Origin: Candidatus Roizmanbacteria bacterium CG_4_9_14_0_2_um_filter_38_17 | Lineage (GTDB): Bacteria; Patescibacteriota; Microgenomatia; GCA-00278855 | Length of the DNA: 64,000 bases | Assembly (NCBI GenBank): GCA_002788855.1 | Contig: PFSB01000006.1 | Span: forward strand, 99,292 to 163,291 | Direction of reading: 5' to 3' | Shown here: piece after piece, positions 6,101-58,859 of the stretch | Layout of the letters: every line of letters begins with the position of its first letter | How positions within the stretch are numbered: the first letter of the stretch is position 1 | Made by a program: the position numbers and the translations under genes | Notes under the pieces: generated by a model | Seen by the model: only the letters and a program-made list of their open reading frames with translations | Told to the model about the DNA's origin: nothing | Database searches by the model: none

Positions 6101-6584
6101 TGACGTTGAAGCAATGGGAAAAAGAGAATTTGTTTTTTGTGGCAACACACAAGAAGATAGCCTATCTATTCTTCCTCACACAACGCAAATATATTTTCCA
6201 GTTGTATATATGCGAGAGTTGGACCAACAGGTTATAGTGCATAAACTAGTTGTTGATTACACAAAAATTAATCCAACTCATTACAATGTGAATGTTATAG
6301 GTGATAATGGAGATGTAACAGTAGTTACATTAAATGAAAGATTTGACCCAGATTGGGAGCTCTTAATAACGGATGGTAGTGGTGAGACTAGCAAGGTGCA
6401 GAACCACTTTGAATCTGATTATTATGCTAATAGTTGGTTGATTCAGAAAGATGGAGATTATAAACTAGAGGTAAGGCACGCTAGTCAGCGAAGATTTACT
6501 GTAAGTGCAGTTATCAGTTTATTTTTTGCGGTTAGCTCTGGTGCATATATTTGTTACAAAAAATTTGTTAAAAAGAATGATTAA
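3174..6584 (+). CDS. Giant polytopic membrane protein, YfhO-like GT-C glycosyltransferase candidate (1136 aa) with large extracytoplasmic C-terminal domain and C-terminal TM anchor
   Basis: About 13 hydrophobic helices in first 450 aa, LLDGHDNVFPL loop near N-terminus, long beta-rich soluble domain, final TM helix (VISLFFAVSSGAYICY) as in YfhO-family proteins. Confidence 0.45.
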   Translation: MKWLKGRKQDILGLAILIAISMIPLIWVSGGYLLDGHDNVFPLVPQVFLHGRLFTWISNEGFGLDQTRFMGTIPMHLLEALPAMLGFSITVAQRFTYIFWMLAMSLSMYLFVRRTGLGNWVVATIAAVLYVINFYILQAWFIAEVAKFSAYTALPLLLLVFYEVYRKRLSILTGSLLNGLILFIFNAGGLFGIPLYGGLITTIVVFVLFFSLHDCLKGSLSTAFRFLLLILGTLILAVLANMYMLLPVFFELSKAVIDGVASVGGVEGLIEWAGVISKNTSYNNLFRLQGVSEWYDNAQHSYASNYLMTPVLILASFVPLVILILPLYTWKTWSIAKKHRPFVLYLYWLFIIGFVLSAGTHAPLGFVYKAMMRYIPGFLIFRTPYYKFAPTIFFSFSIIAGITIGFFIDRFKPKMHLIMTVAVVSLVVLYHFPFVQTKQFNWRDDLRTRLKVPEYVFDFADYINRADTGDNRVLAIPNLSSSTQADVYNWGFFSLYPLTRYFTNKPVIMNDQLLDRQSRTIINEIYRSLLIGDKQYFEQLARLASIKYLLVRNDFNYKLEWSRSISPDEYEAQIKSFYPNITSLTFGEWTLYTMPVNYSNGVVSVYKPIEVISSDITNLHNLLGTPYRYSLNSIIADSVTQDMYKEASYSSFLNCRLCEVERNIMHVDFTASRILPNSPLFKIIQYRENKQISSVVGVDKITTLLGISNKRVARLIKMYELDVKDEQVLTKTMDDIISQTDILIAEIEKIENTEEKLTLAIKASMYIDKELQYLRNQFKNEAIQRASSSMKSRYLMLLQEFQQDLLNIESYKFGGNIEKDKLFIFQVPRSGLYGFSLKYDSNLGKVGTTVELVIDKSESLLVEINNDSWIDMGDLPLDKGEHRLEIRINNEDIDILKWAETDSSLYPDKSCYGAKLVNDDPIGFGSFKMRFKNPIAQGEEYIFYEINDAIEGGVTNLSTFEYQEDVSDTTEDLRFYDVEAMGKREFVFCGNTQEDSLSILPHTTQIYFPVVYMRELDQQVIVHKLVVDYTKINPTHYNVNVIGDNGDVTVVTLNERFDPDWELLITDGSGETSKVQNHFESDYYANSWLIQKDGDYKLEVRHASQRRFTVSAVISLFFAVSSGAYICYKKFVKKND

Positions 6585-7065
6585 AAACCTTATAAATCGG
6601 GTATCTGAAGCTAGTACAAAGATGGATCTTAAATTTGGTTATACATTGATGATTGTGCTAGTAGTCATAGCAGTTTTGAGCAAAGTTCCTTATGCAAATT
6701 TATTCATAAAAATAGATATTATGACTATGATTCCATTGGTTATATTGGGTGTGTTTTTTCGTTTATTAGTTGGAGCGAGTCTGTGGTTAATAATACCAGT
6801 GCTTTTTCTACTTATACTAATTAGCAGTATTTCTGAGGCAGTGATTACATATACTTCATTTATATATGGACTATATTTAATTATTATTTCTCTTCTAAGC
6901 GTTACATATATGCTGTATTTATTAATCTTTTTTTCTGCTCTATTGCTAATAGATACAGTATTTGGAGTTGGTTTTTCAGAAATATTAGGTGTTTTTTTAT
7001 ATATATCTTTGGTAGGAGTTATTGTGAAATATAGCTATCAAGAGATGATTCAATCTAATAAATAG
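6577..7065 (+). CDS. Small polytopic membrane protein (hypothetical)
   Basis: Highly hydrophobic 160-aa product; start placed at MIKNL to avoid 80-nt overlap of track ORF 6505 with upstream gene. Confidence 0.35.
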   Translation: MIKNLINRVSEASTKMDLKFGYTLMIVLVVIAVLSKVPYANLFIKIDIMTMIPLVILGVFFRLLVGASLWLIIPVLFLLILISSISEAVITYTSFIYGLYLIIISLLSVTYMLYLLIFFSALLLIDTVFGVGFSEILGVFLYISLVGVIVKYSYQEMIQSNK

Positions 7066-8513
7066 TGTTGCTTAATAAGTTGAAATTAGGTTTAGTTTTG
7101 GTTGTTGTTTTTGCTGTGTATAGAGTTTGGTTTCGATTGGGAACTTTATCTGCTGGGGATTGGCCTTATCTGTATTTAGAAAATATTGGAGAATTTTCAT
7201 GGTTTCCAGAAATTAGATTTTTGTGGCTTGGATTATATTATCAGATTCCAGCTAAACTTTTTGTGCAAGTACTGGGATTATCATGGGAAGTGGTTGAGAG
7301 GGTTATATGGTTTGTACCTTTTGTACTGCTTTGTGTCTATTCAAGTTATCGTTTAACTAAATCATGGTTGGGGGTATTGGTTTATACAACCAGCACATAT
7401 ATATTAATGGTGGTTGGAGGGGGACAGATGGGGGTAGCTTTTGGATATGCACTGGCGCCTTTGGTGTTGGATTGGTTTGTAAGAGGTAGGAAAGGGTTAT
7501 TAGGAGGGTTATTTGTTTCTTTACAGTTAATGTTTGATCCTCGAATGGCATATATAACTTTGTTTGGGGTGGTTTTGTATTATCTAGTAACAGACTGGAA
7601 AAAAGTGAGGCTCATTATTATTCCTTTGATTATTGCATTTATTTTGAATCTATTTTGGATAGTTCCTATAATTATGTCTGGTACGGGGGAATATGGAGAT
7701 ATATACACAGGTGGAGAAATGGTAGAGTTTTTTAGTTTTGCAAAGTTTGAAAATGCAATTTCACTTTTTCATCCAAATTGGCCTGACAATATATTTGGAA
7801 AAGTGGGATTCCAAAGGCCTGAGTTTATGTTGCTGCCAATTTTGGCATTTTCCAGTCTTTTGTTCTCAAAAAAGCCTAAAATATTATTTTTTGCTTTACT
7901 AGGGTTAGTTGGTTCATTTTTGGCTAAAGGTGCAAATGAACCCTTTGGTATGGTCTATTTGTGGCTATTTGAACATGTTCCTGGATTTGTGATGTTTAGA
8001 GATCCTACTAAATGGTATCTATTAATTGCTTTAAGCTACTCTGTCCTTATTCCATATGTGCTTAATAGTTTCAAGGTTAAATGGGTTGTGTGGTTATTTA
8101 TTGTTTATTGGGTAATTTTAATAAGACCAGTTTGGCTAGGTCAGCTTACGGGTACATTTGAGCCAAAGGCGGTGCCAGGTGAGTATATTGAATTAAAGGA
8201 TTTTATTTATGAGCAAGATGGTGATTTTAAAACACTATGGATTCCTGGTAGGCAGAGATTTGGATTTGTATCCAAGAATCATCCGGCAATTGAAGCTTCA
8301 TCGTCAGCTGAGCTTTCTAGAAGTGAACTTCTAAATAAAAAGGTTAAGTATATTATTGTTCCTTACGATAATCGCGAGGAACTGTTTATTGAGGATCATA
8401 AGTATGTTCCAGCTCTTAGAGCTGAACTCATAGAGGAGCTTGGGCAGTTATCGTGGCTTGAGCATAGCCAAATAGAGAATATAGATATATTTGAAATTAA
8501 AGCAGATAAATAA
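7065..8513 (+). CDS. Polytopic membrane protein, possible GT-C family glycosyltransferase
   Basis: 482 aa, at least 10 predicted TM helices, aromatic-rich loops; embedded between other GT-C genes. Confidence 0.4.
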   Translation: MLLNKLKLGLVLVVVFAVYRVWFRLGTLSAGDWPYLYLENIGEFSWFPEIRFLWLGLYYQIPAKLFVQVLGLSWEVVERVIWFVPFVLLCVYSSYRLTKSWLGVLVYTTSTYILMVVGGGQMGVAFGYALAPLVLDWFVRGRKGLLGGLFVSLQLMFDPRMAYITLFGVVLYYLVTDWKKVRLIIIPLIIAFILNLFWIVPIIMSGTGEYGDIYTGGEMVEFFSFAKFENAISLFHPNWPDNIFGKVGFQRPEFMLLPILAFSSLLFSKKPKILFFALLGLVGSFLAKGANEPFGMVYLWLFEHVPGFVMFRDPTKWYLLIALSYSVLIPYVLNSFKVKWVVWLFIVYWVILIRPVWLGQLTGTFEPKAVPGEYIELKDFIYEQDGDFKTLWIPGRQRFGFVSKNHPAIEASSSAELSRSELLNKKVKYIIVPYDNREELFIEDHKYVPALRAELIEELGQLSWLEHSQIENIDIFEIKADK

Positions 8514-38722: not shown

Positions 38723-38747
38723 CTATTAAAAACTGGGTTTTTAATAG
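38723..38747. repeat. REP-B palindrome (CTATTAAAAAC-TGG-GTTTTTAATAG)
   Basis: Perfect 11-bp stem, 3-nt loop. Confidence 0.75.
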
Positions 38748-38771
38748 AATATTTGGTATTCTTGTATTGTT

Positions 38772-39482
38772 ATGAGAAAAGATGCGGTGTTTGTAGTCGG
38801 TGAGTTTTATCATGTATATAATAGAGGAACTCGTAAAAGCGAAATATTTTTGAATGAAAGTGATTATAGACGATGAGATGAGTGTTTGTATTGGAGTAAT
38901 AATTTTGGCTATCCCTATAGTCTTCTAAGACAGCAAATTAATCAGGCGAAAAAGAGTGGTAGAAATATTAAAGAAGTAGTTGAACAAATTGAAATGCAGT
39001 ACCGATTATTTGAGTCTTTGGTTAATGTAATTTCTTACGCACATATGCCAAATCACTTTCACCTAGTCTTGAGGCAAAATGTAGATAATGGAATATCAAA
39101 ATTTATGCATAAAATGTCGGCTTCTTATGCAAAGTACTTTAACAAGAAGTACAATCTAACCGGATCACTGTATGAAGGAAATTTTAGAGCGATTCAGATA
39201 ATATCTGAACCTCAACTATTAGAAGTTAGTAGATATGTTCATATTAATCCAACTGTAGCAGGAATTGTTGATATAAAGGGTTTGCTTACATATCCCTGGA
39301 CATCGTTGCGTTTATATGTAGGAGAAGTGAATAATAAGCTCGTTGATATCAGTTATTTACTCGGCTTAAGTAATAATAACGCAGAAGAGCTGGTAAGGTT
39401 TACTCTTTCCAGGATTAGCGATGATAATGAAGGACTATTGGAAGGGATAATGATTGATGGTAACAAATTAGCCCGTAAATAA
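38772..39482 (+). pseudogene. RAYT copy 2, disrupted by in-frame TGA (TGG to TGA at the Trp position conserved in copy 1)
   Basis: ATG 38772 gives MRKDAVFVVGEFYHVYNRGTRKSEIFLNESDYRR-stop-DECLYW...; downstream part intact with MPNHFHLVL and RYVHINPTVAGIV (Y-x-H-x-N-P) motifs; copy 1 has DSDYVRWENLLSW at the equivalent position. Confidence 0.65.
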
Positions 39483-39485
39483 GCT

Positions 39486-39510
39486 CTATTAAAAACCCAG
39501 TTTTTAATAG
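39486..39510. repeat. REP-B palindrome, inverted orientation (CTATTAAAAAC-CCA-GTTTTTAATAG)
   Basis: Exact reverse complement of copy at 38723. Confidence 0.75.
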
Positions 39511-42344: not shown

Positions 42345-43604
42345 ATGGCAAAATTTATAATAAATGGCAGAAATAGACTAGAAGGAAAAATTAAGGTTGC
42401 GGCTAATAAGAATGCGGTTTTGCCAGTAATGGCGGCAACGCTTCTTTGTGAAGGAACAAGCATTATTCATAACGTACCTGAAATAAAAGATGTTGAGGTA
42501 ATGGTGAATATTTTACGCAAGCTGGGAGCAAAAGTAACCTTAAGCGAGAGAACATTAACAGTAGACAGCTCAAATATAACCAATCTAGAAATACCACGTG
42601 ATCTAGCTCAACGCCTGAGAGCATCAGTATTATTGTTGGGACCATTACTTGCAAGAGCTGGAGAAGTTAAGCTTCCTCATCCTGGTGGTGATGTAATAGG
42701 TAGGCGTGGTATTTTCACACATATTTCTGCATTGACGAAGCTAGGGGTTCAAATTACTCAAGATGACCTCATGTACTATGGCAAGGTTATTCAGAAAAAT
42801 GCAGTGAAAGTATTTTTAGATGAACCCTCAGTGACAGGCACAGAAAATGTCATGATGTACGCGGCTTTAACAGATGGTGAAACAGTGATAGAGAATGCTG
42901 CAGCTGAACCTCATATTGTTGATCTATCTAGATTTTTAGCATCAGCTGGTGTAACTATCGAGGGAGCAGGAACTAGTAGAATTAGAATAATAGGAAAAAA
43001 GAGCTTAAAGGGCGGAGAGTATACAATTTCTCCTGACCCGATTGAAGCGGGCACATTTGCAATTGCTTCTGCAGTAACCAAAGGAGACCTGGAGATTGGA
43101 CCAATTGTACAAGATGACATGCAGATGATAAAGATAGTGCTGGAGAGATTTGGCGTTAATCTAAAGTTTGATAAAGATAAACTTCGTGTAAATTCCAAAG
43201 AAATAACAGCACCTCTTAGACCTGTGCAAGCAATGGTTTGGCCTGGCTTTCCAACTGACCTTATGAGTCCTTTAATCGTGCTTGCCACACAGGCAGAAAG
43301 GCAGACCCTGTGTCATGATCCTCTTTATGAGTCACGCATGTTCTTTGTTGATAAGCTAATTAGAATGGGGGCTCACATTACAATCTGTGATCCGCATCGT
43401 GTCATTGTGTATGGCAAGTCAAACTTGTATGGAAGAGAGCTGGCAAGTCCAGATATACGAGCAGGAATGGCCTTAGTTTTGGCGGCTTTAATAGCGGAGG
43501 GTAAGAGTGTTATTGATCAAGCAGAGATTGTTGAAAGGGGATACGAGAATATTGACAAAAGATTGCGTATAATAGGAGCAGATATTAAAAGATCTAATGA
43601 TTAA
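42345..43604 (+). CDS. murA: UDP-N-acetylglucosamine 1-carboxyvinyltransferase MurA
   Basis: FIINGRNRLEGKIKVAANKNAVLPVMAATLL, 419 aa EPSP-synthase fold. Confidence 0.9.
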   Translation: MAKFIINGRNRLEGKIKVAANKNAVLPVMAATLLCEGTSIIHNVPEIKDVEVMVNILRKLGAKVTLSERTLTVDSSNITNLEIPRDLAQRLRASVLLLGPLLARAGEVKLPHPGGDVIGRRGIFTHISALTKLGVQITQDDLMYYGKVIQKNAVKVFLDEPSVTGTENVMMYAALTDGETVIENAAAEPHIVDLSRFLASAGVTIEGAGTSRIRIIGKKSLKGGEYTISPDPIEAGTFAIASAVTKGDLEIGPIVQDDMQMIKIVLERFGVNLKFDKDKLRVNSKEITAPLRPVQAMVWPGFPTDLMSPLIVLATQAERQTLCHDPLYESRMFFVDKLIRMGAHITICDPHRVIVYGKSNLYGRELASPDIRAGMALVLAALIAEGKSVIDQAEIVERGYENIDKRLRIIGADIKRSND

Positions 43605-44841
43605 ACAAGCAGTTATATTGGCAGCAGGCGAGTCATCAAGGTTTCAGCCGTTGTCTGCATATAGGCATAAAGCAGAAATCCCATTGCTTGGTAAAAGTTT
43701 GCTCCAGCGCACGGTAGATAACTTACAGAGCATTGGTGTAGAAGAGGTTATTATAGTTCATTCGCCAGATCGAAGACCTCAGTTATTTGCTCATGAGTGT
43801 GAACTAAGATTTGTAGTTCTAGATAAACCTACAGGAATGGGAGATGCCCTGCTGGCAGCTTTAGATTTTTTGGATGATAAATATTTTGTGCTTCATCCCT
43901 ACCACTTTGCGGGAGTTAATTACATGAAAAAGATGGTTAAGGTTACAGCTGAAAATAATGGCTGTTTATTAGTAACTGATCCCGTAATAGGAAAAAGCGG
44001 TGGACTTGCCACGGTTGAAAAGGATGACATTGTCCAGGTTGAGGAGATGGAGTATAAGGGGGGAGATAATAAGAAATATGTTCTTGGAATATATTTACTA
44101 ACCAAAACATACACAGATATTTTGCAACAGACTAAAAAAGATCACTATAGTTTTGAACTTGCCCTTGATCAATATGCAAGAGCTAACAAATTATCCTGGT
44201 TTCAGGTTAGAGACTACTCAGTATCGCTAAAATACCCCTGGGACTTATTCAAGATCAAGGATACGCTTCTTCGCTCTAGTAAAGCAAGTATAGCGAAAAC
44301 AGCGAAAATTGACCCAACAGCCGTGATAGATGGGGTAGTTATTATCGATGAAAATGCGAAAATAGGAGCATATGCCGTTATTAGAGGTCCCGCATATATT
44401 GGTAGAAATGTACGAGTAGGAGATCATGCTTTGGTTCGTGATTTGACTACATTGGAAGAGGGCTCGATGGTGGGTGGTTCAGCAGAAGTAAAAAATAGTA
44501 TTGTTTTGGAAGAGTCTCATGTGCAGGGATATCTTGCAGACTCTATAGTGGGGCAAGAGGTGAGAATAGCTCATGGATTTGTTTCAGCTAATCGCCGCAT
44601 TGATAGGGAAACCATCTCTGTAGAGGTTAAAGGTAAAAAAATAGATACAAGGTTTTTTGCCCTGGGTTGTATAGTAGGTGATAATGTTTATACGGGTATA
44701 AATGTGGCAACTATGCCAGGGGTTAAAGTTGGTGAGAATTCAATAGTTGGCCCTCGTACCACTGTGTTTGCGAATGTCCCTCCAAATGTTCGGTATTATC
44801 AAAAAGCCGAATCCCACACAGAAAAGATTATAAAGAAGTAA
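43597..44841 (+). CDS. Bifunctional sugar-1-phosphate nucleotidyltransferase / hexapeptide acetyltransferase (GlmU-like)
   Basis: N-terminal AVILAAGESSRFQPL NTP-transferase motif and C-terminal LbH repeats; follows murA. Confidence 0.5.
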   Translation: MIKQAVILAAGESSRFQPLSAYRHKAEIPLLGKSLLQRTVDNLQSIGVEEVIIVHSPDRRPQLFAHECELRFVVLDKPTGMGDALLAALDFLDDKYFVLHPYHFAGVNYMKKMVKVTAENNGCLLVTDPVIGKSGGLATVEKDDIVQVEEMEYKGGDNKKYVLGIYLLTKTYTDILQQTKKDHYSFELALDQYARANKLSWFQVRDYSVSLKYPWDLFKIKDTLLRSSKASIAKTAKIDPTAVIDGVVIIDENAKIGAYAVIRGPAYIGRNVRVGDHALVRDLTTLEEGSMVGGSAEVKNSIVLEESHVQGYLADSIVGQEVRIAHGFVSANRRIDRETISVEVKGKKIDTRFFALGCIVGDNVYTGINVATMPGVKVGENSIVGPRTTVFANVPPNVRYYQKAESHTEKIIKK

Positions 44842-44847
44842 TCTGCT

Positions 44848-45555
44848 ATGAATAGTTATCATAGGCAACTATTGGTTAATATCCAGAAGAATTCAAGAAG
44901 AGAAGATTTGTCATTACACAATAGCCAGAAGTACTGTGGGACAAGTGACAAATTCTACAATCTTAAAACAGAAATCAAGCGTCAGGCTGCAAAAGAATTT
45001 TTTAGAAAGTATCTTGATTTATCTTTCGATGAGTATATTGAGCTTTTGGATTCTTTGAACACTGGAAAATCCTATGAAGAAAAAACTATTGCCTCAATGA
45101 TTTTATGTTTGTATAAAAACAACAAAGAACACATAGGTCCAGAACATTTAGATAAGTGGCTTGAAAATCTTGAAGGTTGGGCAGAAATTGATTCATTATG
45201 CCAGTCTTCTTTTGGTGCTGATGAAATATTACTAAAATGGAACAGTTGGGAAAAAGCCTTAATTACTTTCTCCAGATCAGATTTTATTAGCAAAAGAAGA
45301 GCGAGTCTTGTTTTGCTTGTAAAACCTGTAAGAGACGCTAAGAATGATAAGTTGTTTAGTCTTGCGCTGGAAAATATAGATAAATTAAAGAAAGAGAAAG
45401 ATATATTAATTACAAAAGCAATTTCGTGGTTGTTACGGGATATGATAAAAAACTATAGAAATGAAGTAAGGCATTACTTGAAGGAAAATAGAGAAACTCT
45501 CCCAAAAATTGCTATAAGGGAAGTAACAAGGAAACTAGAAACAGGAAAGAAGTAA
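44848..45555 (+). CDS. DNA alkylation repair protein (AlkC/AlkD-like HEAT-repeat glycosylase family)
   Basis: W/D-rich helical repeats (WLENLEGWAEIDSLC, KAISWLLRDM) typical of DNA_alkylation family. Confidence 0.55.
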   Translation: MNSYHRQLLVNIQKNSRREDLSLHNSQKYCGTSDKFYNLKTEIKRQAAKEFFRKYLDLSFDEYIELLDSLNTGKSYEEKTIASMILCLYKNNKEHIGPEHLDKWLENLEGWAEIDSLCQSSFGADEILLKWNSWEKALITFSRSDFISKRRASLVLLVKPVRDAKNDKLFSLALENIDKLKKEKDILITKAISWLLRDMIKNYRNEVRHYLKENRETLPKIAIREVTRKLETGKK

Positions 45556-45572
45556 GCAGTTAGATTATAAAT

Positions 45573-45797
45573 ATGGAAGCTAGAGAAGCAAGTATTATAA
45601 CAGGTGTAATTGCAGAGAAATATGGTCTGGATAACATAGAAGTGAGTGGTTGGCTACATAATGCATTAGATCCTGGACTAGGTCCAGAAAGCAATCAAAA
45701 AGCGAGAGGATCGCTAAATCATGCTCTTGACGAATCGGATGTAACCTATTTACTTGGTATTTGGGCTGATTGTATAGCCGACTCCAACTCTGCTTAA
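45573..45797 (+). CDS. Hypothetical small protein
   Basis: 74-aa ORF, no recognisable motif. Confidence 0.3.
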   Translation: MEAREASIITGVIAEKYGLDNIEVSGWLHNALDPGLGPESNQKARGSLNHALDESDVTYLLGIWADCIADSNSA

Positions 45798-45824
45798 ATA
45801 TCTGGATTGGATCTAGTTCTGGCT

Positions 45825-45890
45825 CTATTAAAAACTGGGTTTTTAATAGGTTGTTAAATCAAGCTATTAAGGGGGTCAACTATTTAAATT
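45825..45890. repeat. REP-B palindrome plus about 40-bp extension; left copy of direct repeat bounding 1.5-kb cassette
   Basis: CTATTAAAAACTGGGTTTTTAATAG then TTGTTAAATCAAGCTATTAAGGGGGTC...TTTAAATT; matches 47377..47443. Confidence 0.7.
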
Positions 45891-46013
45891 ACAGGAAGTG
45901 ATTTCCATTATTGGGACACAGAGCTCGTAATACTTTTTAAACTTCAAAAAAAGTTCCAAAATTTTTGTCATTCAAAAGTTAACCTCATTTTAAGTTCGAA
46001 TCCCACTCGGCCG

Positions 46014-46022
46014 TGGTATAAT
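46014..46022 (+). promoter_or_regulatory. Extended -10 (TGGTATAAT) for cassette operon
   Basis: 6 nt upstream of ATG 46029, leaderless configuration. Confidence 0.4.
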
Positions 46023-46028
46023 AATTGT

Positions 46029-46469
46029 ATGGAAACCTTTCTTAATTTTCTAACAGTATTCGGGCTTGGAAGCGTTATAACTGTATTTATCACACACAAA
46101 CTAAAACAATCCTCAGAATCAAAAATAAAAATGAGAGAATTAAAAGAAAATCAATATAAAAGTCTTCTTAATAATTTAATGGGTTTTTTTGAGGGATGGG
46201 AAGACTATGCAGTTGCAGATAAAAAAGCTCGCAAGAAACAATTCTTGTGGGAAGTTTATACAAGCGTTCCTGTATATGCATCAGATGTGGTTATAAGGCT
46301 TTGCTATGAGTTTATAGAAAGCCATAACAAAGAAGGGAAATTGAAAGGAGAGAGCAATAAAATTTATTCAAAAATCGTAATTGCTATGAGAATGGAATTA
46401 AATAAAATTTATGGTCAGCCAGATACTACACTTTCAGAGAAAGACATTAAAGTTCTTAAAGTTGATTAA
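46029..46469 (+). CDS. Hypothetical membrane-anchored protein (1 TM plus 120-aa soluble domain)
   Basis: N-terminal FLNFLTVFGLGSVITVFITH helix; no known motif. Confidence 0.45.
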   Translation: METFLNFLTVFGLGSVITVFITHKLKQSSESKIKMRELKENQYKSLLNNLMGFFEGWEDYAVADKKARKKQFLWEVYTSVPVYASDVVIRLCYEFIESHNKEGKLKGESNKIYSKIVIAMRMELNKIYGQPDTTLSEKDIKVLKVD

Positions 46470-46508
46470 TGATTCAAAGCAGAGCAGACAAAATTACAAA
46501 AACTGACA

Positions 46509-47330
46509 ATGAATATTTTTCAGAGTAAGTACTTCAACGTTGTTCTTCCAGTTTTATTTGTTTTGTTTCTTTTGCTGCTACTTGTCTATGGTTGTTTAAT
46601 TGGCATATATGATGTTATAACTTTAGCTGTAAATGCCGTCCTTATGCTCCTTGCTACGCTAATTGCAATTTCACTACCTTTGTATGCAAGCGCGAAAAAT
46701 GAACAAAAACGCAGGGATAAGGAACATGAAATGATTTATGTATCTGTATCCCGATACGTTGGCGGTGAAATCTTGGATAATGTTATAGAGATTCAAGATA
46801 TTCTAAAAAATAATGAAAAATCTCTAGGCCAACTGGATAAACAAAATCTTTCTATGTCAGAAAGAGATAAAAAAATAGTTACCGCTTCTATATGGAAAAC
46901 GGCTTCAGAAATCCTTGTTGGTTCGCTTCAGGATAAACATCACAACAATATGGTTATGTCTGGTTTAGTAGCCAAAATTCCCGATGACGCTGTTGGCAAC
47001 GGAATTCGTGATACTTATCAAAAAATGGATAATCTAAAAAAGCGACTCAAAAGCATAACGATGTTTTTTGGAATGCTTATATCTCCCCAAGTTGGGGTTT
47101 CTAAAACATTCTTGGATTATCAGTTTAATACGAAACTGCAAGAAGGTATTACTGCTGTTGAATTGGATATAAAGATATTTAGCGATTCTGCAGAAAAAAC
47201 TAGAAAAGACATTAACAAGCTACTGAAACAATATGGGAAAGAGATTAAAATTATAGCTTATGAAAAAGTACATAACTCTGAAAAAGGATCTAGAAAAACT
47301 GAAAAATCTTCCATTTCTTCAAAAAAATGA
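46509..47330 (+). CDS. Hypothetical membrane protein (2 N-terminal TM plus helical soluble domain, Lys/Ser-rich tail)
   Basis: VLPVLFVLFLLLLLVYGCLIGIYDVITLAVNAVLMLLATLIAISLPLY; no known motif. Confidence 0.45.
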   Translation: MNIFQSKYFNVVLPVLFVLFLLLLLVYGCLIGIYDVITLAVNAVLMLLATLIAISLPLYASAKNEQKRRDKEHEMIYVSVSRYVGGEILDNVIEIQDILKNNEKSLGQLDKQNLSMSERDKKIVTASIWKTASEILVGSLQDKHHNNMVMSGLVAKIPDDAVGNGIRDTYQKMDNLKKRLKSITMFFGMLISPQVGVSKTFLDYQFNTKLQEGITAVELDIKIFSDSAEKTRKDINKLLKQYGKEIKIIAYEKVHNSEKGSRKTEKSSISSKK

Positions 47331-47376
47331 GCAAGAGATTGTTGATAAATAGCTATAGCTATGGTTGAAAGATGTT

Positions 47377-47443
47377 TCTATTAAAAACTGGGTTTTAAAT
47401 AGATTGTTAAATCAAGCTTTTAAGGAGGTCTACCCTTTAAATT
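47377..47443. repeat. REP-B variant plus extension; right copy of direct repeat bounding cassette
   Basis: CTATTAAAAACTGGGTTTTAAATAG then ATTGTTAAATCAAGCTTTTAAGGAGGTC...TTTAAATT. Confidence 0.7.
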
Positions 47444-47579
47444 TCAGACCCTTTAAATCCAGATAATGGGGTCAGCCACCTATTTAGAAAAAATACAAGG
47501 ACAAATCTTGTAGAAAATATATATGCAAATTTTCTACTCAATTGGGAAACGGCACCTTTTTTCATTTAACGCTCAACTT

Positions 47580-47616
47580 AAGGCAAGGTCTTCCATTTCA
47601 TGTAAGGCCTTGCCTT
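47580..47616. terminator. Hairpin AAGGCAAGG-N19-CCTTGCCTT, possible bidirectional terminator
   Basis: 9-bp perfect stem immediately 3' of minus-strand TrmB stop (47625). Confidence 0.3.
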
Positions 47617-47624
47617 GTTTCGCG

Positions 47625-48383
47625 TTAGGGGAGGAGGGACCAGAGGGATTGGAAGATTATTTTCTGGGTTTGGACTAGTCCGGGTTCTTCAATGATAACT
47701 GCATATGGTAGTTCATCTTCGGTGATAGAGATGATGGCATATTTATCTGTATAGATGATGATATAGCTTGAGGAGTTGGAGCTGGAGTTTTGTATCCATT
47801 TTCGCTGTGCTAACTGCACTTCTTCTCCACCTTTTCCTAAGGCAATTACATTTACCTGGATACCTTTGGTAATTCTTTGTTTAGTAAAATTAGGAAATTG
47901 TTGATAGAGGTATTTTCTGATTGGCAAAGCTGAGTAAGCATAATATGTTTTATCTTTAGTATTCTCAACAGAGTGGAGAATATCTAGGAGTACTTTTTCG
48001 ATACCTTCTTCTCCCTCATAATATTTAACCGTGGGACTTGATCCAGTAATTTTAGATGCCTCAAGTTCTGGTATGACTTTTGTACTAAGGGATGAAATTA
48101 GCTGTTTAATCCTGGTTTCTTTTTCTTTAGCAAGATTTGTTAGTTTTTTAGGAGATTCAGCTAGATAACGTTTTCGCTGTCCACTCATCTGAAAGCATAC
48201 GAGGCCTTTTTTTACGAGTTCTCTTAGTATTTCGTGAGTAGTTCCCCTATTGATTTTAGTATCTGCAGCTAGCTCCCGGATGGAGACAGGGCCAAGCTTT
48301 AGGAGTGATTTGTAAACAATATATTCCTTACTAGATATACCCAGCAGACTAAATTGTGAATCCATTGGGTAATTATATAACAC
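47625..48383 (-). CDS. TrmB-family (sugar-responsive) transcriptional regulator
   Basis: N-terminal winged HTH ...YKSLLKLGPVSIRELAADTKINRGTTHEILRELVKKGLV..., 252 aa with C-terminal sensor-like domain. Confidence 0.65.
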   Translation of the reverse strand: MLYNYPMDSQFSLLGISSKEYIVYKSLLKLGPVSIRELAADTKINRGTTHEILRELVKKGLVCFQMSGQRKRYLAESPKKLTNLAKEKETRIKQLISSLSTKVIPELEASKITGSSPTVKYYEGEEGIEKVLLDILHSVENTKDKTYYAYSALPIRKYLYQQFPNFTKQRITKGIQVNVIALGKGGEEVQLAQRKWIQNSSSNSSSYIIIYTDKYAIISITEDELPYAVIIEEPGLVQTQKIIFQSLWSLLP

Positions 48384-48480
48384 TTGTCAATAAAATGTTG
48401 ACAAAAACTGTTGACATTGCATATGTGCCGAACTATGCTTGGTCTTTGTTATTAATTGTCAATATATTAACTGACTGACT
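48384..48480. promoter_or_regulatory. Divergent trmB-like/glmS control region with inverted repeat TTGTCAA-N7-TTGACAA and glmS promoter TTGACA-17-TATGCT
   Basis: TTGTCAA 48384..48390, TTGACAA 48398..48404, TTGACA 48411..48416, TATGCT 48434..48439, extra TTGTCAA 48456..48462. Confidence 0.45.
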
Positions 48481-50250
48481 ATGTGTGGGATATTTGGATA
48501 TACTGGAAAAAATAATAATGCAGCGGATATAGTCCTTGAGGGGCTTAAAAAACTTGAGTATCGTGGATATGATAGCTGGGGTGTGGCAGTCCCGGGTCCT
48601 AGCGATGTAATCTCTGTAAGAAAAAAAATAGGTAAGATTGGTAATGCTACGATTGGCAACTTACCAGATGCATCTACCGGAATTGGACATACACGCTGGG
48701 CGACTCATGGTGGGGTAACAGAAAAGAATGCTCATCCGCATTTATCCTGTGATAAAAAAATTGCAGTAATTCATAATGGCATCATTGAAAATTACGATAA
48801 GCTACGTAGTAAGCTACAGAGCCAAAATCATGTATTTGTATCTGATACAGACTCTGAGGTAGCAGTACATCTGATAGAAGAATACAGGATGACTAATGCA
48901 TTATTAGAAGCTGTACGGAAGGCTTTTTTGGATTTTAGTGGACTAAATGCTGTAATTGCTCTGGAGGTTGGTGAAGAAGGTTTTGTGGCTATTAAAAATG
49001 GTTCACCCGTAGTAGTTGGGTTCGGTCAGGACGGAAACTATTTAGCTAGCGATGCAGTGGCGCTTAGTGCTCATACTAGAACAGTTTATTACCTTAAGGA
49101 TAATGAACTTGTGCATGTAGGCAAAAAAGAGGTACTGCTGTTTAATGCAGAAACTGGCAAGCAAAAGGGTTTTAAGAAGATAAAATTAGATTGGAGTGTA
49201 GAAGCTGCTGATTTAGGAAAGTACAAATACTTTATGCTTAAAGAGATAAATGAGCAACCAGATATTATTTCTCGTATTCTTAAAGAAGATATTGAGCAGG
49301 CAATACAGTTAGCTAAAGTGATTAAAAAATCATATGGTACTTATTTAGTTGGGTGTGGTACTGCTGCATATGCCTGTCTAGCTGGTTCTTATCTGTTTTC
49401 AAAAATAGCTAAAAGACATGTGAACTGGGCAGTAGGGAGTGAATTTGGCTACCAATTAGATTTTCTAACAGATAAAAGCTTCGTATTGGCTTTATCCCAA
49501 TCCGGAGAGACGATGGATATCCTTGAAGCAGTAAAAAAAGCTAAAACAAGAAATGCAAAAATTGGTGCTCTGGTTAATGTAATGGGGTCTACTCTTTACA
49601 GAGAGGCTGACCATAAAATGTTAATAGGGGCTGGCCCTGAAAAAGGAGTAGCCTCAACGAAAGTATTTGTTTCCAAGCTTGCTCATCTTGTGTTGCTTTC
49701 ATATATACTGGAGGGTAAAAACTTGGAAGGAACAGCAGTTCTTAAAAAAGCAGAAGTATCTGCGAGGGATGTTTTGAATGAAAGCACTACAAGAAAAATT
49801 AAAAAGTTAGCAAACAAATTGTATAAAAAAGATCATATGTATATAGTTGGCAGGGGTTTATCATACCCAGCGAGTTTGGAAGCAGCACTAAAGATAAAGG
49901 AAATTTCATATATCCATGCGGAGGGATTTGCCGCCGGGGAGCTAAAACATGGGGTCATAGCATTAATCGAAAAAGGAACACCTTGTATGGTATATGCCCC
50001 GAATGATGAAACATATGGCGCAAATCTTGCAGGCGCAATGGAGATGAAAGCGCGTGGTGGTTATATTATTGGAGTGTCACATAAGGATCATGAAGTATTT
50101 GATTATTATATTGAGGTAAAAGACGCAGCTGAGGCAACCATTATTCCTAATGTGATGGTTGCGCAGTTGCTCTCGTATTATTTAGCAGTTAAGCTAGGAC
50201 TTGATCCAGATAAACCTCGTAACCTAGCTAAATCTGTTACGGTTAAATAA
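48481..50250 (+). CDS. glmS: Glutamine--fructose-6-phosphate aminotransferase GlmS
   Basis: MCGIFGY N-terminal Ntn-amidotransferase start, two SIS domains, C-terminal ...KSVTVK. Confidence 0.95.
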   Translation: MCGIFGYTGKNNNAADIVLEGLKKLEYRGYDSWGVAVPGPSDVISVRKKIGKIGNATIGNLPDASTGIGHTRWATHGGVTEKNAHPHLSCDKKIAVIHNGIIENYDKLRSKLQSQNHVFVSDTDSEVAVHLIEEYRMTNALLEAVRKAFLDFSGLNAVIALEVGEEGFVAIKNGSPVVVGFGQDGNYLASDAVALSAHTRTVYYLKDNELVHVGKKEVLLFNAETGKQKGFKKIKLDWSVEAADLGKYKYFMLKEINEQPDIISRILKEDIEQAIQLAKVIKKSYGTYLVGCGTAAYACLAGSYLFSKIAKRHVNWAVGSEFGYQLDFLTDKSFVLALSQSGETMDILEAVKKAKTRNAKIGALVNVMGSTLYREADHKMLIGAGPEKGVASTKVFVSKLAHLVLLSYILEGKNLEGTAVLKKAEVSARDVLNESTTRKIKKLANKLYKKDHMYIVGRGLSYPASLEAALKIKEISYIHAEGFAAGELKHGVIALIEKGTPCMVYAPNDETYGANLAGAMEMKARGGYIIGVSHKDHEVFDYYIEVKDAAEATIIPNVMVAQLLSYYLAVKLGLDPDKPRNLAKSVTVK

Positions 50251-58834: not shown

Positions 58835-58859
58835 CTATTAAAAACTGGGTTTTTAATAG
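58835..58859. repeat. REP-B palindrome (fifth copy)
   Basis: CTATTAAAAACTGGGTTTTTAATAG. Confidence 0.75.

What the first reader, a model, noticed from the sequence alone, without database searches (positions are those of the whole stretch)
45825..47443. AT-rich 1.5-kb cassette of two unknown membrane-anchored proteins bounded by about 65-bp direct repeats (REP-B plus extension), next to a TrmB-like regulator
Direct repeats 45825..45890 and 47377..47443 share the REP-B hairpin plus TTGTTAAATCAAGCTWTTAAGGRGGTC...TTTAAATT. Between them lie an extended -10 promoter (TGGTATAAT, leaderless) and two ORFs. One is 146 aa with 1 TM. The other is 273 aa with 2 TM, a long helical domain and a Lys/Ser-rich tail. 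Neither has recognisable motifs. The cassette sits beside a DNA-alkylation-repair gene and a 74-aa orphan. The layout is a small membrane-protein pair with its own promoter inside a repeat-bounded unit. This resembles abortive-infection or phage-exclusion modules and mobile accessory cassettes. It is my best candidate in this window for an undescribed system.
Basis: partly seen in the sequence, partly recalled or inferred. Interest (0 to 1): 0.65.

Follow-up and report, generated by a model that had tools for sequence, protein, structure and literature searches.

The report
Swappable accessory gene cassette in Roizmanbacteria
A 1.5-kb stretch bounded by two 71-base repeats is one exchangeable module of a small strain-variable gene islet in an uncultured groundwater bacterium; it carries two unrelated, uncharacterised membrane-anchored proteins that may act in phage defence but do not form a conserved two-gene system.

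Summary
Direct repeats of 71 nt (45824-45894 and 47377-47447, 89% identical) bracket a low-GC unit with orfA (146 aa, 1 TM) and orfB (273 aa, 2 TM). Each repeat is the genome's 25-nt REP hairpin plus a 45-nt extension. The hairpin occurs 5 times in the window and flanks, in inverted copies, a RAYT-like Y1 transposase at 38886-39482. The extension occurs only at the cassette borders.

The whole 2.8 kb between the glmU-like gene and the TrmB-like gene is a lineage-specific islet, absent in more distant Roizmanbacteria. A sister lineage has the same flanks and the same REP+extension, followed by a different cargo (zinc ribbon + borderline DUF4145/HEPN). A third contig joins the window's cassette (orfB 821/822 nt) to the sister's backbone, with the crossover inside 41 conserved bases. 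This points to cargo swapping by homologous recombination in conserved flanks.

orfA and orfB are unrelated, rare families with no known domain. Outside this lineage they never co-occur. Each is found elsewhere alone: directly after a tRNA gene, at the 3' end of a type I R-M operon, or near other defence genes. A defence role is circumstantial. This is a new member of a known kind (a core-flanked accessory hotspot) with uncharacterised cargo.

The parts
45824..45894 (+). Left 71-nt repeat (c1): REP hairpin 45825-45849 plus 45-nt extension 45850-45894
   Evidence: It is orthologous to L017_b: 55/57 identical although the neighbouring orf74 is only 63% identical.
45994..46013 (+). tRNA 3'-end-like fragment GTTCGAATCCCACTCGGCCG (T-loop, T-stem, acceptor strand). 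Suggestive only.
   Evidence: The exact 10-mer GTTCGAATCC is unique in the window, and ARAGORN finds no tRNA in the window. Homologs of orfA and orfB lie 24-26 nt after intact tRNAs elsewhere. Noticed post hoc.
46014..46022 (+). Extended -10-like box TGGTATAAT, 6 nt before the orfA ATG (possible leaderless transcript)
   Evidence: Read. Not reported by the two-hexamer scan. Untested.
46029..46469 (+). orfA, 146 aa: N-terminal TM anchor plus a ~110-aa helical cytoplasmic domain. Rare family of 11 clusters.
   Evidence: No family or structure match.
46509..47330 (+). orfB, 273 aa: two-TM hairpin, ~190-aa helical bundle and a Lys/Ser-rich disordered tail. Rare stand-alone family.
   Evidence: 38 representatives among 1.84 billion proteins; full-length members are 245-283 aa and there are no fusions. 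No family or structure match.
47377..47447 (+). Right 71-nt repeat (c2): REP hairpin (1 mismatch) plus extension
   Evidence: 89.6% identical to c1 and 89.4% to L017_b, so it is an outgroup to both. 71/71 identical in L019.
47517..47610 (.). 94-nt block identical in window, L017 and L019. It contains an inverted repeat at 47580-47616 that may be a bidirectional terminator. It is the right-hand homology anchor next to the cargo.
   Evidence: (I8)
47623..47663 (.). Crossover interval in L019: window-type alleles up to 47622, L017-type alleles from 47664
44848..45555 (+). DNA-alkylation-repair-like gene, the first gene of the lineage-specific islet (GC 0.321)
   Evidence: Absent at this site in L020, L022 and L026. 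Present in L017 at 78% aa identity.
45573..45797 (+). 74-aa acidic orphan, the second islet gene. It is older than the cassette (52% aa identity to the 69-aa gene in L017).
43597..44841 (+). glmU-like nucleotidyl/acetyltransferase, the left core flank of the islet
47625..48383 (-). TrmB-like regulator, the right core flank (convergent with the islet genes)
38886..39482 (+). RAYT-like Y1 (HUH) transposase whose inverted flanking hairpins (38723-38747 +, 39486-39510 -) are the same REP as at the cassette borders
58835..58859 (+). Fifth REP copy, 41 nt after the ABC-F gene, without the extension

Best explanation
The 1.55-kb unit is the terminal, exchangeable module of a ~2.8-kb accessory islet (44848-47460). 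The islet is wedged between two convergent core genes, the glmU-like gene and the TrmB-like regulator/glmS, in the cell-wall gene cluster of a Candidatus Roizmanbacteria (CPR) population.

Shown:
- The islet is missing in more distant relatives.
- A sister lineage carries a different gene after the same REP+extension.
- The same cassette occurs almost unchanged on a 10%-diverged backbone, with a crossover inside a short conserved stretch.

Inferred from those points: cargo is swapped between related strains by homologous recombination in conserved flanks. On the right the anchor is the 94-nt block and the 3' end of TrmB. On the left it is probably the REP+extension or the upstream genes. No cassette-borne recombinase is involved.

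The bounding repeats are resident sequences of this lineage. Each is the REP hairpin that belongs to the RAYT-like transposase 7 kb upstream, plus a 45-nt junction sequence that is under constraint for an unknown reason.

Inferred about the cargo: the cassette is transcribed from its own extended -10 box as a leaderless orfA-orfB message. The two products are unrelated membrane-tethered proteins with cytoplasmic helical domains. Each is an independent accessory gene found elsewhere in variable or defence regions, including the last slot of type I R-M operons. I think the most likely role is a phage-defence or abortive-infection-type membrane sensor or effector, each acting on its own rather than as a pair.
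For: Islet is lineage-specific. In L022 and L026 (named Roizmanbacteria) the glmU-like gene lies 74 nt and roughly 200 nt from the TrmB 3' end, and in L020 murA abuts it directly. None of L020-L099 has DNA_alk, orf74, orfA or orfB.

Alternative cargo. In L017 and L018, homology with the window ends at 45888 and resumes at about 47460-47517. In between is a 246-aa zinc-ribbon + DUF4145-like gene.

Recombinant. L019 is ~100% identical to the window over 46477-47622 (orfB 821/822, c2 71/71), then ~100% identical to L017 and ~90% to the window from 47664. The crossover interval is 41 nt and the longest three-way identical run is 94 nt, both shorter than the assembler k of 141. glmS is also mosaic between these lineages, so recombination with divergent DNA happens in this region.

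Composition. GC 0.323 against 0.369, lowest 1.1% of same-size windows.

Repeats are native. The REP is found at 5 sites and flanks a Y1 transposase that has the HFH and YVHINP motifs. REP and extension are absent from every other locus carrying a homolog.

Constraint on the junction. 55/57 identical between lineages, against a 74% flank rate (P about 1e-5).

Independence of the two genes.

Defence-type contexts.
- orfB homolog P0013 lies between HsdR/HsdM-S and PDC-S18 plus a QatA/PifA-like KAP NTPase.
- orfA homolog P0023 lies directly after HsdM-S.
- HEPN_AbiU2 neighbour.
- PDC-S06 2.4 kb away, and BrnT/CopG in the same locus.
- HicA-like neighbour.
- DUF4145 is a HEPN domain linked to R-M and to the RAZR abortive-infection protein (PMC3710099, PMC13017515).
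Against: - Function is inferred from neighbourhood only. No PADLOC, Pfam, PHROG or NCBIfam model matches either protein, and no phage or plasmid homologs exist.
- Three of six orfB contexts (L001, L002, L006) are simply tRNA-adjacent with no known defence gene next door. They could reflect conserved synteny in one clade.
- Each R-M association is a single instance.
- L019 is a 2.5-kb metagenome contig, so an assembly chimera cannot be fully excluded, and its left junction is not visible.
- On the left side the REP (27 nt exact) is not the longest shared exact match; 32-33-nt runs exist in DNA_alk. The left anchor is therefore not identified.
- The rest of this genome could not be searched, so the extension may occur elsewhere.
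Confidence: 0.55

Rival explanations
1. The REP+extension is a dedicated recombination site. Cassettes would be captured or excised by site-specific or single-strand transposition, either by the RAYT-like HUH enzyme acting in trans or by an unseen recombinase. That would give an integron-like array in which each module is delimited by an extension copy.
For: - All four known extension copies lie at module borders inside the islet: window c1 and c2; L017 between DNA_alk and orf69; L017 between orf69 and the DUF4145-like gene.
- Non-homology with the sister lineage begins at the end of the extension.
- The extension is conserved well above its flanks.
- A Y1 transposase with the same hairpin is encoded 7 kb away.
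- Two hairpins in direct orientation on one strand resemble the ends of IS200/IS605 elements (PMC6006769; own knowledge).
Against: - No integrase appears among the genes called from about 40 kb to 57 kb of the window.
- The extension has no conserved hairpin and no compensatory changes.
- The L017 cargo has no significant right-hand copy (p = 0.2).
- The window lacks a copy between DNA_alk and orf74.
- c2 is not a fresh duplicate of c1; it is equidistant from c1 and from L017_b.
- The one observed exchange (L019) has its crossover in ordinary conserved DNA 175 nt beyond the repeat.
- RAYTs are thought to move REP doublets, not gene cargo (PMC2817692, PMC3390384).
Confidence: 0.12
2. The bracketing is incidental. 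REP+extension would be a generic 3'-end module of this genome (terminator, RNA-stability or protein-binding element) that happens to follow both orf74 and orfB, with no role in delimiting or moving the cassette.
For: - All five REPs lie 3-47 nt after a stop codon, as is typical of REPs.
- c2 is an old copy, not an insertion scar.
- The L017 cargo lacks a right copy.
- REPs mark long-resident DNA in Pseudomonas (PMC3390384).
- Strong conservation fits a cis-acting function unrelated to mobility.
Against: - In 64 kb plus the sister loci, the extension is seen only inside the islet. Three other REPs lack it.
- The point where homology with the sister is lost coincides with the end of the extension.
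- This rival and the main explanation are largely compatible. It disputes only whether the repeat matters for exchange.
Confidence: 0.2
3. orfA and orfB are ordinary envelope or housekeeping membrane proteins of this lineage, for example linked to the surrounding cell-wall and division genes or to the TrmB/glmS regulon. They would not be conflict genes.
For: - They sit within a dcw/glm cluster.
- Three orfB homologs occupy a similar tRNA-adjacent position next to a small MS-channel-like membrane protein, which could be vertical inheritance.
- orfA is strongly conserved, with 46 invariant columns.
Against: - They are absent from this site in other Roizmanbacteria and replaced by another gene in the sister lineage.
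- Both families are extremely rare: 11 and 16 clusters among 5.8 billion, and 38 representatives among 1.84 billion.
- Low GC.
- Neighbourhoods elsewhere are non-conserved and several are defence-type.
Confidence: 0.1
4. One reading: orfA and orfB together form one undescribed two-component membrane defence system that moves as a repeat-bounded unit.
For: - They are adjacent, co-oriented and 39 nt apart behind one promoter-like box.
- Both are membrane-anchored.
- Both families occur in the same kinds of slot elsewhere.
Against: - They never co-occur within about 8 kb in 10 independent contexts outside this lineage, tested with profile HMMs.
- They are not homologous.
- Caveats: the L011 contig ends right after the orfA homolog, and L100 starts shortly before its copy. 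Two of the ten contexts are therefore one-sided.
Confidence: 0.06

Closest known systems
Core-gene-flanked defence/accessory hotspots (e.g. cDHS1/cDHS2 of Pseudomonas aeruginosa, PMC10250203)
   Same: A fixed chromosomal site between conserved core genes whose content differs between related strains. It has low GC and no mobility genes inside. Transfer by homologous recombination through the conserved flanks was proposed for cDHS, and here it is supported by one recombinant contig.
   Different: It is tiny (1-3 genes, 2.8 kb, against a median of 26 kb). It lies in a CPR bacterium inside the dcw/glm cluster. Only one of the alternative cargos has even a borderline match to a known defence domain. 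Its modules are separated by a conserved 45-nt sequence joined to a REP.
REP / RAYT (REPIN) systems (PMC2817692, PMC3733652)
   Same: A short perfect palindrome is dispersed in intergenic regions just after genes. A single Y1 HUH transposase gene is flanked by two inverted copies of it.
   Different: - The transposase scores below the NCBIfam RAYT cutoff.
- The hairpin has CTAT/ATAG ends rather than a GTAG or CGTC head.
- Copies in the window are singlets, not doublets.
- The family was defined in Proteobacteria, whereas this is CPR.
- REPs are not known to delimit gene cassettes.
Integron gene cassettes (attC-bounded)
   Same: A co-oriented array of small, unrelated, promoter-poor genes, each followed by a related repeat. 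The content varies between strains.
   Different: No IntI integrase nearby. The repeat has no attC-type imperfect palindrome. Repeat copies are missing at some module borders. The cassette has its own promoter-like box.
Suicide/abortive-infection genes embedded in type I R-M loci (PrrC in EcoprrI; HEPN/DUF4145 genes in R-M operons, PMC3710099)
   Same: Homologs of orfA and of orfB each occupy the last position of a type I R-M operon, starting 1-2 nt after hsdM-S. That is the kind of slot used by R-M-linked back-up effectors.
   Different: There is no sequence or fold similarity to PrrC or to HEPN proteins. The proteins are membrane-anchored. In the window there is no R-M system next to them. 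Each association is a single instance.
RAZR / PD-T7-4 (zinc-finger + DUF4145 HEPN RNase, PMC13017515). Relevant to the alternative cargo in the sister lineage.
   Same: The L017 246-aa protein has a Cys-rich N-terminus with CxxC motifs and a C-terminal DUF4145-like domain, which is the same two-domain layout.
   Different: DUF4145 scores just under the Pfam cutoff (22.8 against 23.1). The position of the catalytic Arg holds Lys (AKDIGNNETH). No PADLOC model and no PDB sequence matches.

Membership tests
REP/RAYT system | Y1 (HUH) IS200-like transposase domain with HUH and catalytic Tyr motifs | tested here: met
   Pfam Y1_Tnp 1.3e-8, 35.4 bits against cutoff 23. HFH at residue 57 and YVHINP at residue 117.
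REP/RAYT system | Protein reaches the curated RAYT model threshold (NCBIfam NF047646) | tested here: not met
   It is the best NCBIfam hit, but at 37.9 bits against a cutoff of 80.
REP/RAYT system | [quoted passage not shown] | tested here: met
   Hairpin at 38723-38747 (+) and 39486-39510 (-) around the gene at 38886-39482.
REP/RAYT system | The same palindrome dispersed in many extragenic copies in the genome | tested here: inconclusive
   5 copies in 64 kb, all intergenic, 0 expected. The genome-wide count could not be obtained because this lineage is absent from the scanned collections.
REP/RAYT system | GTAG or CGTC tetranucleotide head on the palindrome (PMC3733652) | tested here: not met
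   The palindrome ends are CTAT...ATAG, and the flanking 8-mers show no conserved GTAG or CGTC.
Integron gene cassette | IntI-type tyrosine recombinase with attI next to the array | tested here: not met
   All genes from about 35.9 kb to 60 kb have other identities in Pfam scans and precomputed Pfam of the identical or sister loci. The remainder of the window was not scanned.
Integron gene cassette | attC-type imperfect inverted repeat forming a conserved hairpin at each cassette end | tested here: not met
   Outside the REP the extension has no conserved stem. A second hairpin folds well only in L017_b, and there are no compensatory changes.
Known anti-phage defence system (PADLOC-DB v2) | Protein matches a model of a known or candidate defence system | tested here: not met
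   0 families for orfA, orfB and orf74 at E <= 1.
Conserved two-gene system (orfA+orfB dyad) | The two families are adjacent in independent genomes | tested here: not met
   Profile HMM search of all fetched loci finds co-occurrence only in the window lineage, across 6 independent orfB and 4 independent orfA contexts.
Core-gene-flanked accessory/defence hotspot | Conserved core genes on both sides in related genomes | tested here: met
   glmU-like/murA/murC on one side and TrmB/glmS/CofD on the other in L017, L020, L022 and L026.
Core-gene-flanked accessory/defence hotspot | Different gene content at the site in related strains | tested here: met
   Window: orfA+orfB. L017/L018: DUF4145-like gene. 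L019: orfB cassette on the L017 backbone. L022/L026/L020: empty.
Core-gene-flanked accessory/defence hotspot | Content made of recognised defence systems | tested here: inconclusive
   Only a borderline DUF4145 match in the sister cargo. orfA and orfB are unknown. Defence genes neighbour some homologs elsewhere.
Core-gene-flanked accessory/defence hotspot | No integrase or transposase inside the variable segment | tested here: met
   The only ORFs in 44848-47460 are DNA_alk, orf74, orfA and orfB.
RAZR/PD-T7-4 (sister-lineage cargo only) | N-terminal zinc-finger plus C-terminal DUF4145 HEPN with a conserved catalytic Arg and His (R146/H154 in RAZR; canonical HEPN motif Rx4-6H) | tested here: inconclusive
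   Cys-rich N-terminus with CPVC and CPRNDC. DUF4145 at 22.8 bits against a cutoff of 23.1. Lys replaces the Arg. No PADLOC hit and no PDB sequence hit.

The most novel reading that the evidence does not exclude
The 45-nt junction sequence, with or without the REP hairpin, is a dedicated cassette-border site of an integrase-free, REP/RAYT-linked gene-capture array in CPR bacteria. In addition, orfA and orfB belong to a class of small, interchangeable membrane-tethered effectors that plug into the same two kinds of slot: just after a tRNA gene, or as the last gene of a type I R-M operon, where they would act as back-up abortive-infection modules.
Probability: 0.1. Interest if true: 0.75.

Novelty: new member of a known kind. 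Interest (0 to 1): 0.36.

Why it matters
CPR bacteria have tiny genomes and mostly lack CRISPR (PMC4742961), so how they vary their accessory or defence genes is poorly known. This locus gives a concrete small example. It is a hotspot inside the otherwise conserved cell-wall cluster where sister strains carry different cargo, with direct sequence evidence for exchange through conserved flanks. It also flags two rare protein families, each seen at the end of a type I R-M operon, as candidates for functional testing. Finally, it identifies a 45-nt non-coding element that is more conserved than the genes around it. None of this overturns current ideas.

Tried and rejected
1. Scan of species-representative genomes for the REP hairpin gave 0 hits. 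The metagenome scan for the extension gave only 2 hits, in unrelated coding DNA (one SpoVS-like 'LNQAIKAV'), which is about the number expected by chance. The scan did not even return this population's own contigs. Both scans therefore say nothing about the rest of the genome.
2. orfA and orfB as paralogues: rejected (BLASTP E 0.22; hhalign probability 4%).
4. Rfam: no family in 45500-47700.
5. The extension as a small conserved peptide. It is open in one frame in three copies, but c1 and c2 differ by 7 non-synonymous and 1 synonymous changes, and L017_a has a stop. Rejected (my reading).
6. A third, degenerate extension copy at the right end of the L017 cargo, which I first saw by eye: not significant (p = 0.2). 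Dropped.
7. Bracketing repeats around homologs in other genomes: none found.
8. Phage and plasmid homologs of either protein: none.
9. RAZR membership of the sister cargo by sequence: no PDB or PADLOC match.
10. The afdb50 fold library was unavailable.
11. The other low-GC stretch, near 5450-7100, is the C-terminal part of a 1136-aa membrane protein and is unrelated.
Full report
1. What is in the sequence.

The repeat finder reports one outstanding direct repeat in 44000-49500: 71 nt at 45824-45894 and 47377-47447, 89% identical, 1553 nt apart. Its first 25 nt form a perfect 11-bp hairpin with a TGG loop. That hairpin occurs at five places in the 64-kb window (38723 +, 39486 -, 45825 +, 47378 +, 58835 +), where shuffles give none. 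The 45-nt continuation (TTGTTAAATCAAGCT.TTAAGG.GGTC...TTTAAATT.CAG) is present only at the two cassette borders.

Between the copies lie a TGGTATAAT box (46014-46022, 6 nt before the ATG), orfA (46029-46469, 146 aa) and orfB (46509-47330, 273 aa). orfA has one N-terminal hydrophobic segment. orfB has a continuous hydrophobic stretch over residues 3-63, which is two TM helices. AlphaFold models built on the family alignments are all-helical, with pLDDT 76 and 80, and the orfB tail is disordered. GC of the interior is 0.323 against 0.369 for the window, in the lowest 1.1% of same-size windows.

2. What the hairpin is.

The ORF at 38886-39482 is an IS200-like Y1 transposase (Pfam 1.3e-8). Its best NCBIfam match is 'REP-associated tyrosine transposase', though below cutoff (37.9 against 80 bits). 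It has the HFH and YVHINP motifs, and inverted copies of the same hairpin flank it. That is the arrangement that defines RAYT/REP systems (PMC2817692). All five hairpins lie 3-47 nt after a stop codon. The cassette borders are REP plus something extra.

3. Source and setting.

Exact matches name the source as Candidatus Roizmanbacteria bacterium CG22_combo_CG10-13_8_21, a CPR bacterium. The window is a cell-wall/division cluster. The gene order is rsmH, ftsL-like, ftsI, [RAYT], murE, murC, murA, glmU-like, DNA_alkylation, orf74, orfA, orfB, TrmB-like (-), glmS, CofD, then further on mraY, ABC-F, murD and ftsW.

4. Comparison with relatives.

Twenty-four contigs of the same population were read, and they collapse to three representative places that all carry the cassette. 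Relatives were reached through the TrmB-like flank.

- In two named Roizmanbacteria (L022, L026) the glmU-like gene lies 74 nt and roughly 200 nt from the 3' end of TrmB. In L020 murA abuts TrmB directly. None of 80 related loci encodes DNA_alk, orf74, orfA or orfB. The whole stretch 44848 to about 47460 is therefore a lineage-specific islet between convergent core genes.
- In the sister lineage L017/L018 (TrmB and CofD 91% aa identical) the order is DNA_alk, an extension-only copy, a 69-aa homolog of orf74 (52% aa), REP+extension, then a different 246-aa gene. Homology with the window resumes at GATAATGGGGTCAGCC, at about window 47460.
- That 246-aa gene has a Cys-rich N-terminus and a borderline DUF4145 match, 22.8 against 23.1 bits. 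This is the domain layout of RAZR/PD-T7-4, an abortive-infection HEPN RNase (PMC13017515). DUF4145 is a HEPN family often linked to R-M systems (PMC3710099). Membership could not be confirmed: Lys stands where the catalytic Arg should be, and no PADLOC or PDB sequence matches.

5. Evidence for exchange.

L019, a 2.5-kb contig, encodes exactly the L017 TrmB protein. Yet from its end at window 46477 up to 47622 it is about 100% identical to the window (orfB 821/822 nt, c2 71/71). From 47664 onward it is about 100% identical to L017 and only about 90% to the window. The switch lies in a 41-nt interval bounded by diagnostic differences on both sides. The longest stretch identical in all three is 94 nt (47517-47610). 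Both are shorter than the assembler's k of 141, so a real recombinant is more likely than a chimera, although the latter is not excluded.

So one backbone occurs with either cargo, and one cargo occurs on two backbones 10% apart. The crossover lies in ordinary conserved DNA. The body of glmS is likewise replaced between these lineages: 42% aa identity between flanks that are 91% identical. Recombination with divergent DNA therefore operates in this region. This is the behaviour described for core-gene-flanked defence hotspots, for which transfer through conserved flanks was proposed (PMC10250203).

6. The repeats themselves.

c1 and its orthologue L017_b are 96.5% identical over 57 nt. c2 is 89.6% identical to c1 and 89.4% to L017_b. 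c2 is therefore not a scar of a recent insertion. It either predates the split of the lineages or came from another REP+extension locus.

REP+extension is much better conserved between lineages (55/57) than DNA_alk (82%) or orf74 (63%), with P about 1e-5. The conserved parts are sequence blocks rather than a structure. Only the REP folds consistently, a second hairpin is good only in L017_b, and no Rfam family matches.

REP and extension are absent from all loci that carry homologs of orfA or orfB in other organisms, and those homologs are not bracketed by repeats. The repeats therefore belong to this lineage and not to the genes. In Pseudomonas, REPs mark long-resident DNA (PMC3390384). This suggests the cassette has circulated within this REP-bearing group rather than arriving recently from outside.

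A putative third, degenerate extension at the right end of the L017 cargo was not significant. On the left side the REP gives a 27-nt exact match, the nearest to the cargo but not the longest. On the right a 94-nt identical block abuts the cargo.

7. The proteins.

Both families are rare: 16 and 11 clusters among 5.8 billion proteins. For orfB there are 38 representatives among 1.84 billion; full-length members are 245-283 aa and there are no fusions. They are not homologous to each other. Profile searches find them together only in this lineage. The 'pair' is a local juxtaposition.

8. Where their homologs sit.

- orfB homolog P0013 starts 1 nt after a fused hsdM-S gene of a type I R-M operon. 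It is followed by PDC-S18 and a QatA/PifA-like KAP NTPase, next to type IV secretion genes.
- orfA homolog P0023 starts 2 nt after another fused hsdM-S gene.
- Other contexts include HEPN_AbiU2, PDC-S06 and BrnT/CopG, and a HicA-like pair.
- Three orfB homologs start 24-26 nt after tRNA-Lys or tRNA-Glu, and one orfA homolog starts 26 nt after tRNA-Glu.
- In the window, 15 nt before the orfA ATG, the sequence GTTCGAATCCCACTCGGCCG looks like the 3' end of a tRNA. The 10-mer is unique in the window. This was noticed post hoc and is only suggestive. It hints that the cassette was once copied from a tRNA-adjacent site.

These contexts fit accessory, conflict-related genes. They are few, and three of the six orfB contexts show no defence neighbour.

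9. Conclusion.

Shown: the repeat; its REP/RAYT origin; the lineage-specific islet; alternative cargo at the same point; one recombinant joining cassette and foreign backbone; independence of orfA and orfB; and the absence of any known domain.

Inferred: exchange by homologous recombination in the flanks (one instance, right side only), leaderless transcription from the extended -10, a cytoplasmic orientation of the helical domains (positive-inside rule), and a defence-type function.

Unexplained: why the 45-nt junction is so conserved and confined to module borders, and why two unrelated small membrane proteins share the same two preferred slots.

The finding is a real, tidy example of a known kind of locus, a core-flanked accessory hotspot, with uncharacterised cargo. 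It is not a demonstrated new system.

Noticed in passing
window 48481-50250 (glmS) vs L017 8107-9885: glmS is a mosaic. It is only 42% aa identical between the window and the sister lineage, although the flanking TrmB and CofD are 91% identical. Nucleotide homology (86%) runs through the first ~265 nt of glmS and resumes about 90 nt before its stop. The body of an essential gene has been replaced in situ by a divergent allele in one lineage.
   Followed up: partly
window 38723-39510: A RAYT-like Y1 transposase with its two inverted REPs is inserted between ftsI and murE, inside the conserved division/cell-wall cluster of a CPR bacterium. The RAYT family was originally described as gammaproteobacterial.
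   Followed up: partly
L001 7905-8000, L002 7902-8000, L006 7903-8000; L101 555-653: orfB homologs start 24-26 nt after tRNA-Lys(ttt) or tRNA-Glu(ttc), with a second, inverted tRNA 0.9-1.8 kb upstream. A 12-nt perfect palindrome lies between tRNA and ATG and shows a compensatory change (CTAAACGTTTAG in L001, CTAAGCGCTTAG in L002). An orfA homolog likewise follows tRNA-Glu(ctc) by 26 nt.
   Followed up: partly
L020-L099: The TrmB-like regulator family next to glmS is shared at 42-54% aa identity with many Oceanospirillales and related Gammaproteobacteria (Marinomonas, Endozoicomonas, Saccharospirillum and others). This is an odd distribution for a CPR gene. L020 and L021 are labelled Pseudomonadales/Gammaproteobacteria but have CPR-like dcw synteny, so they may be mis-binned.
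   Followed up: no
window 48384-48480: The divergent TrmB-glmS intergenic region contains an inverted repeat, TTGTCAA-N6-TTGACAA, and further TGTTGACA/TTGTCAA copies, which look like an operator. The 45-nt extension begins with TTGTTAA, one mismatch away. Whether the regulator binds the extension was not tested.
   Followed up: no
window 47432-47462: The end of the right repeat is followed by a near-tandem 15-16-nt duplication (ACCCTTTAAATTTCAG / ACCCTTTAAATCCAG). The left repeat lacks it.
   Followed up: no
L003 1-13000 (GCA_004196255.1): A compact defence island next to type IV secretion genes (TraC-like, TrbL, TrbC). It holds a type I R-M system with fused HsdM-S, the orfB homolog, PDC-S18 (NucS_C/DUF5655) and a 1085-aa KAP NTPase resembling QatA/PifA.
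   Followed up: partly
L015 (PDWI01018982.1): This contig has only one ORF of at least 70 aa in 6.8 kb under table 11, yet reads as coding around the chance match. It is probably from an organism or phage with a reassigned stop codon.
   Followed up: no
L008 vs L009/L010, about 7400-7900: Strains of the Pacebacteria/Roizmanbacteria population that carries the orfA homolog P0024 differ in the small gene just upstream of it: 70 aa on the + strand in one, 96 aa on the - strand in the others. That site seems variable too.
   Followed up: no
window 46509 vs 46644 (L012/L013 gene calls): Public gene calls for orfB disagree on the start (273 aa or 228 aa) on identical DNA. Conservation of the first 45 residues across 14 homologs supports the long form with two TM helices.
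   Followed up: yes
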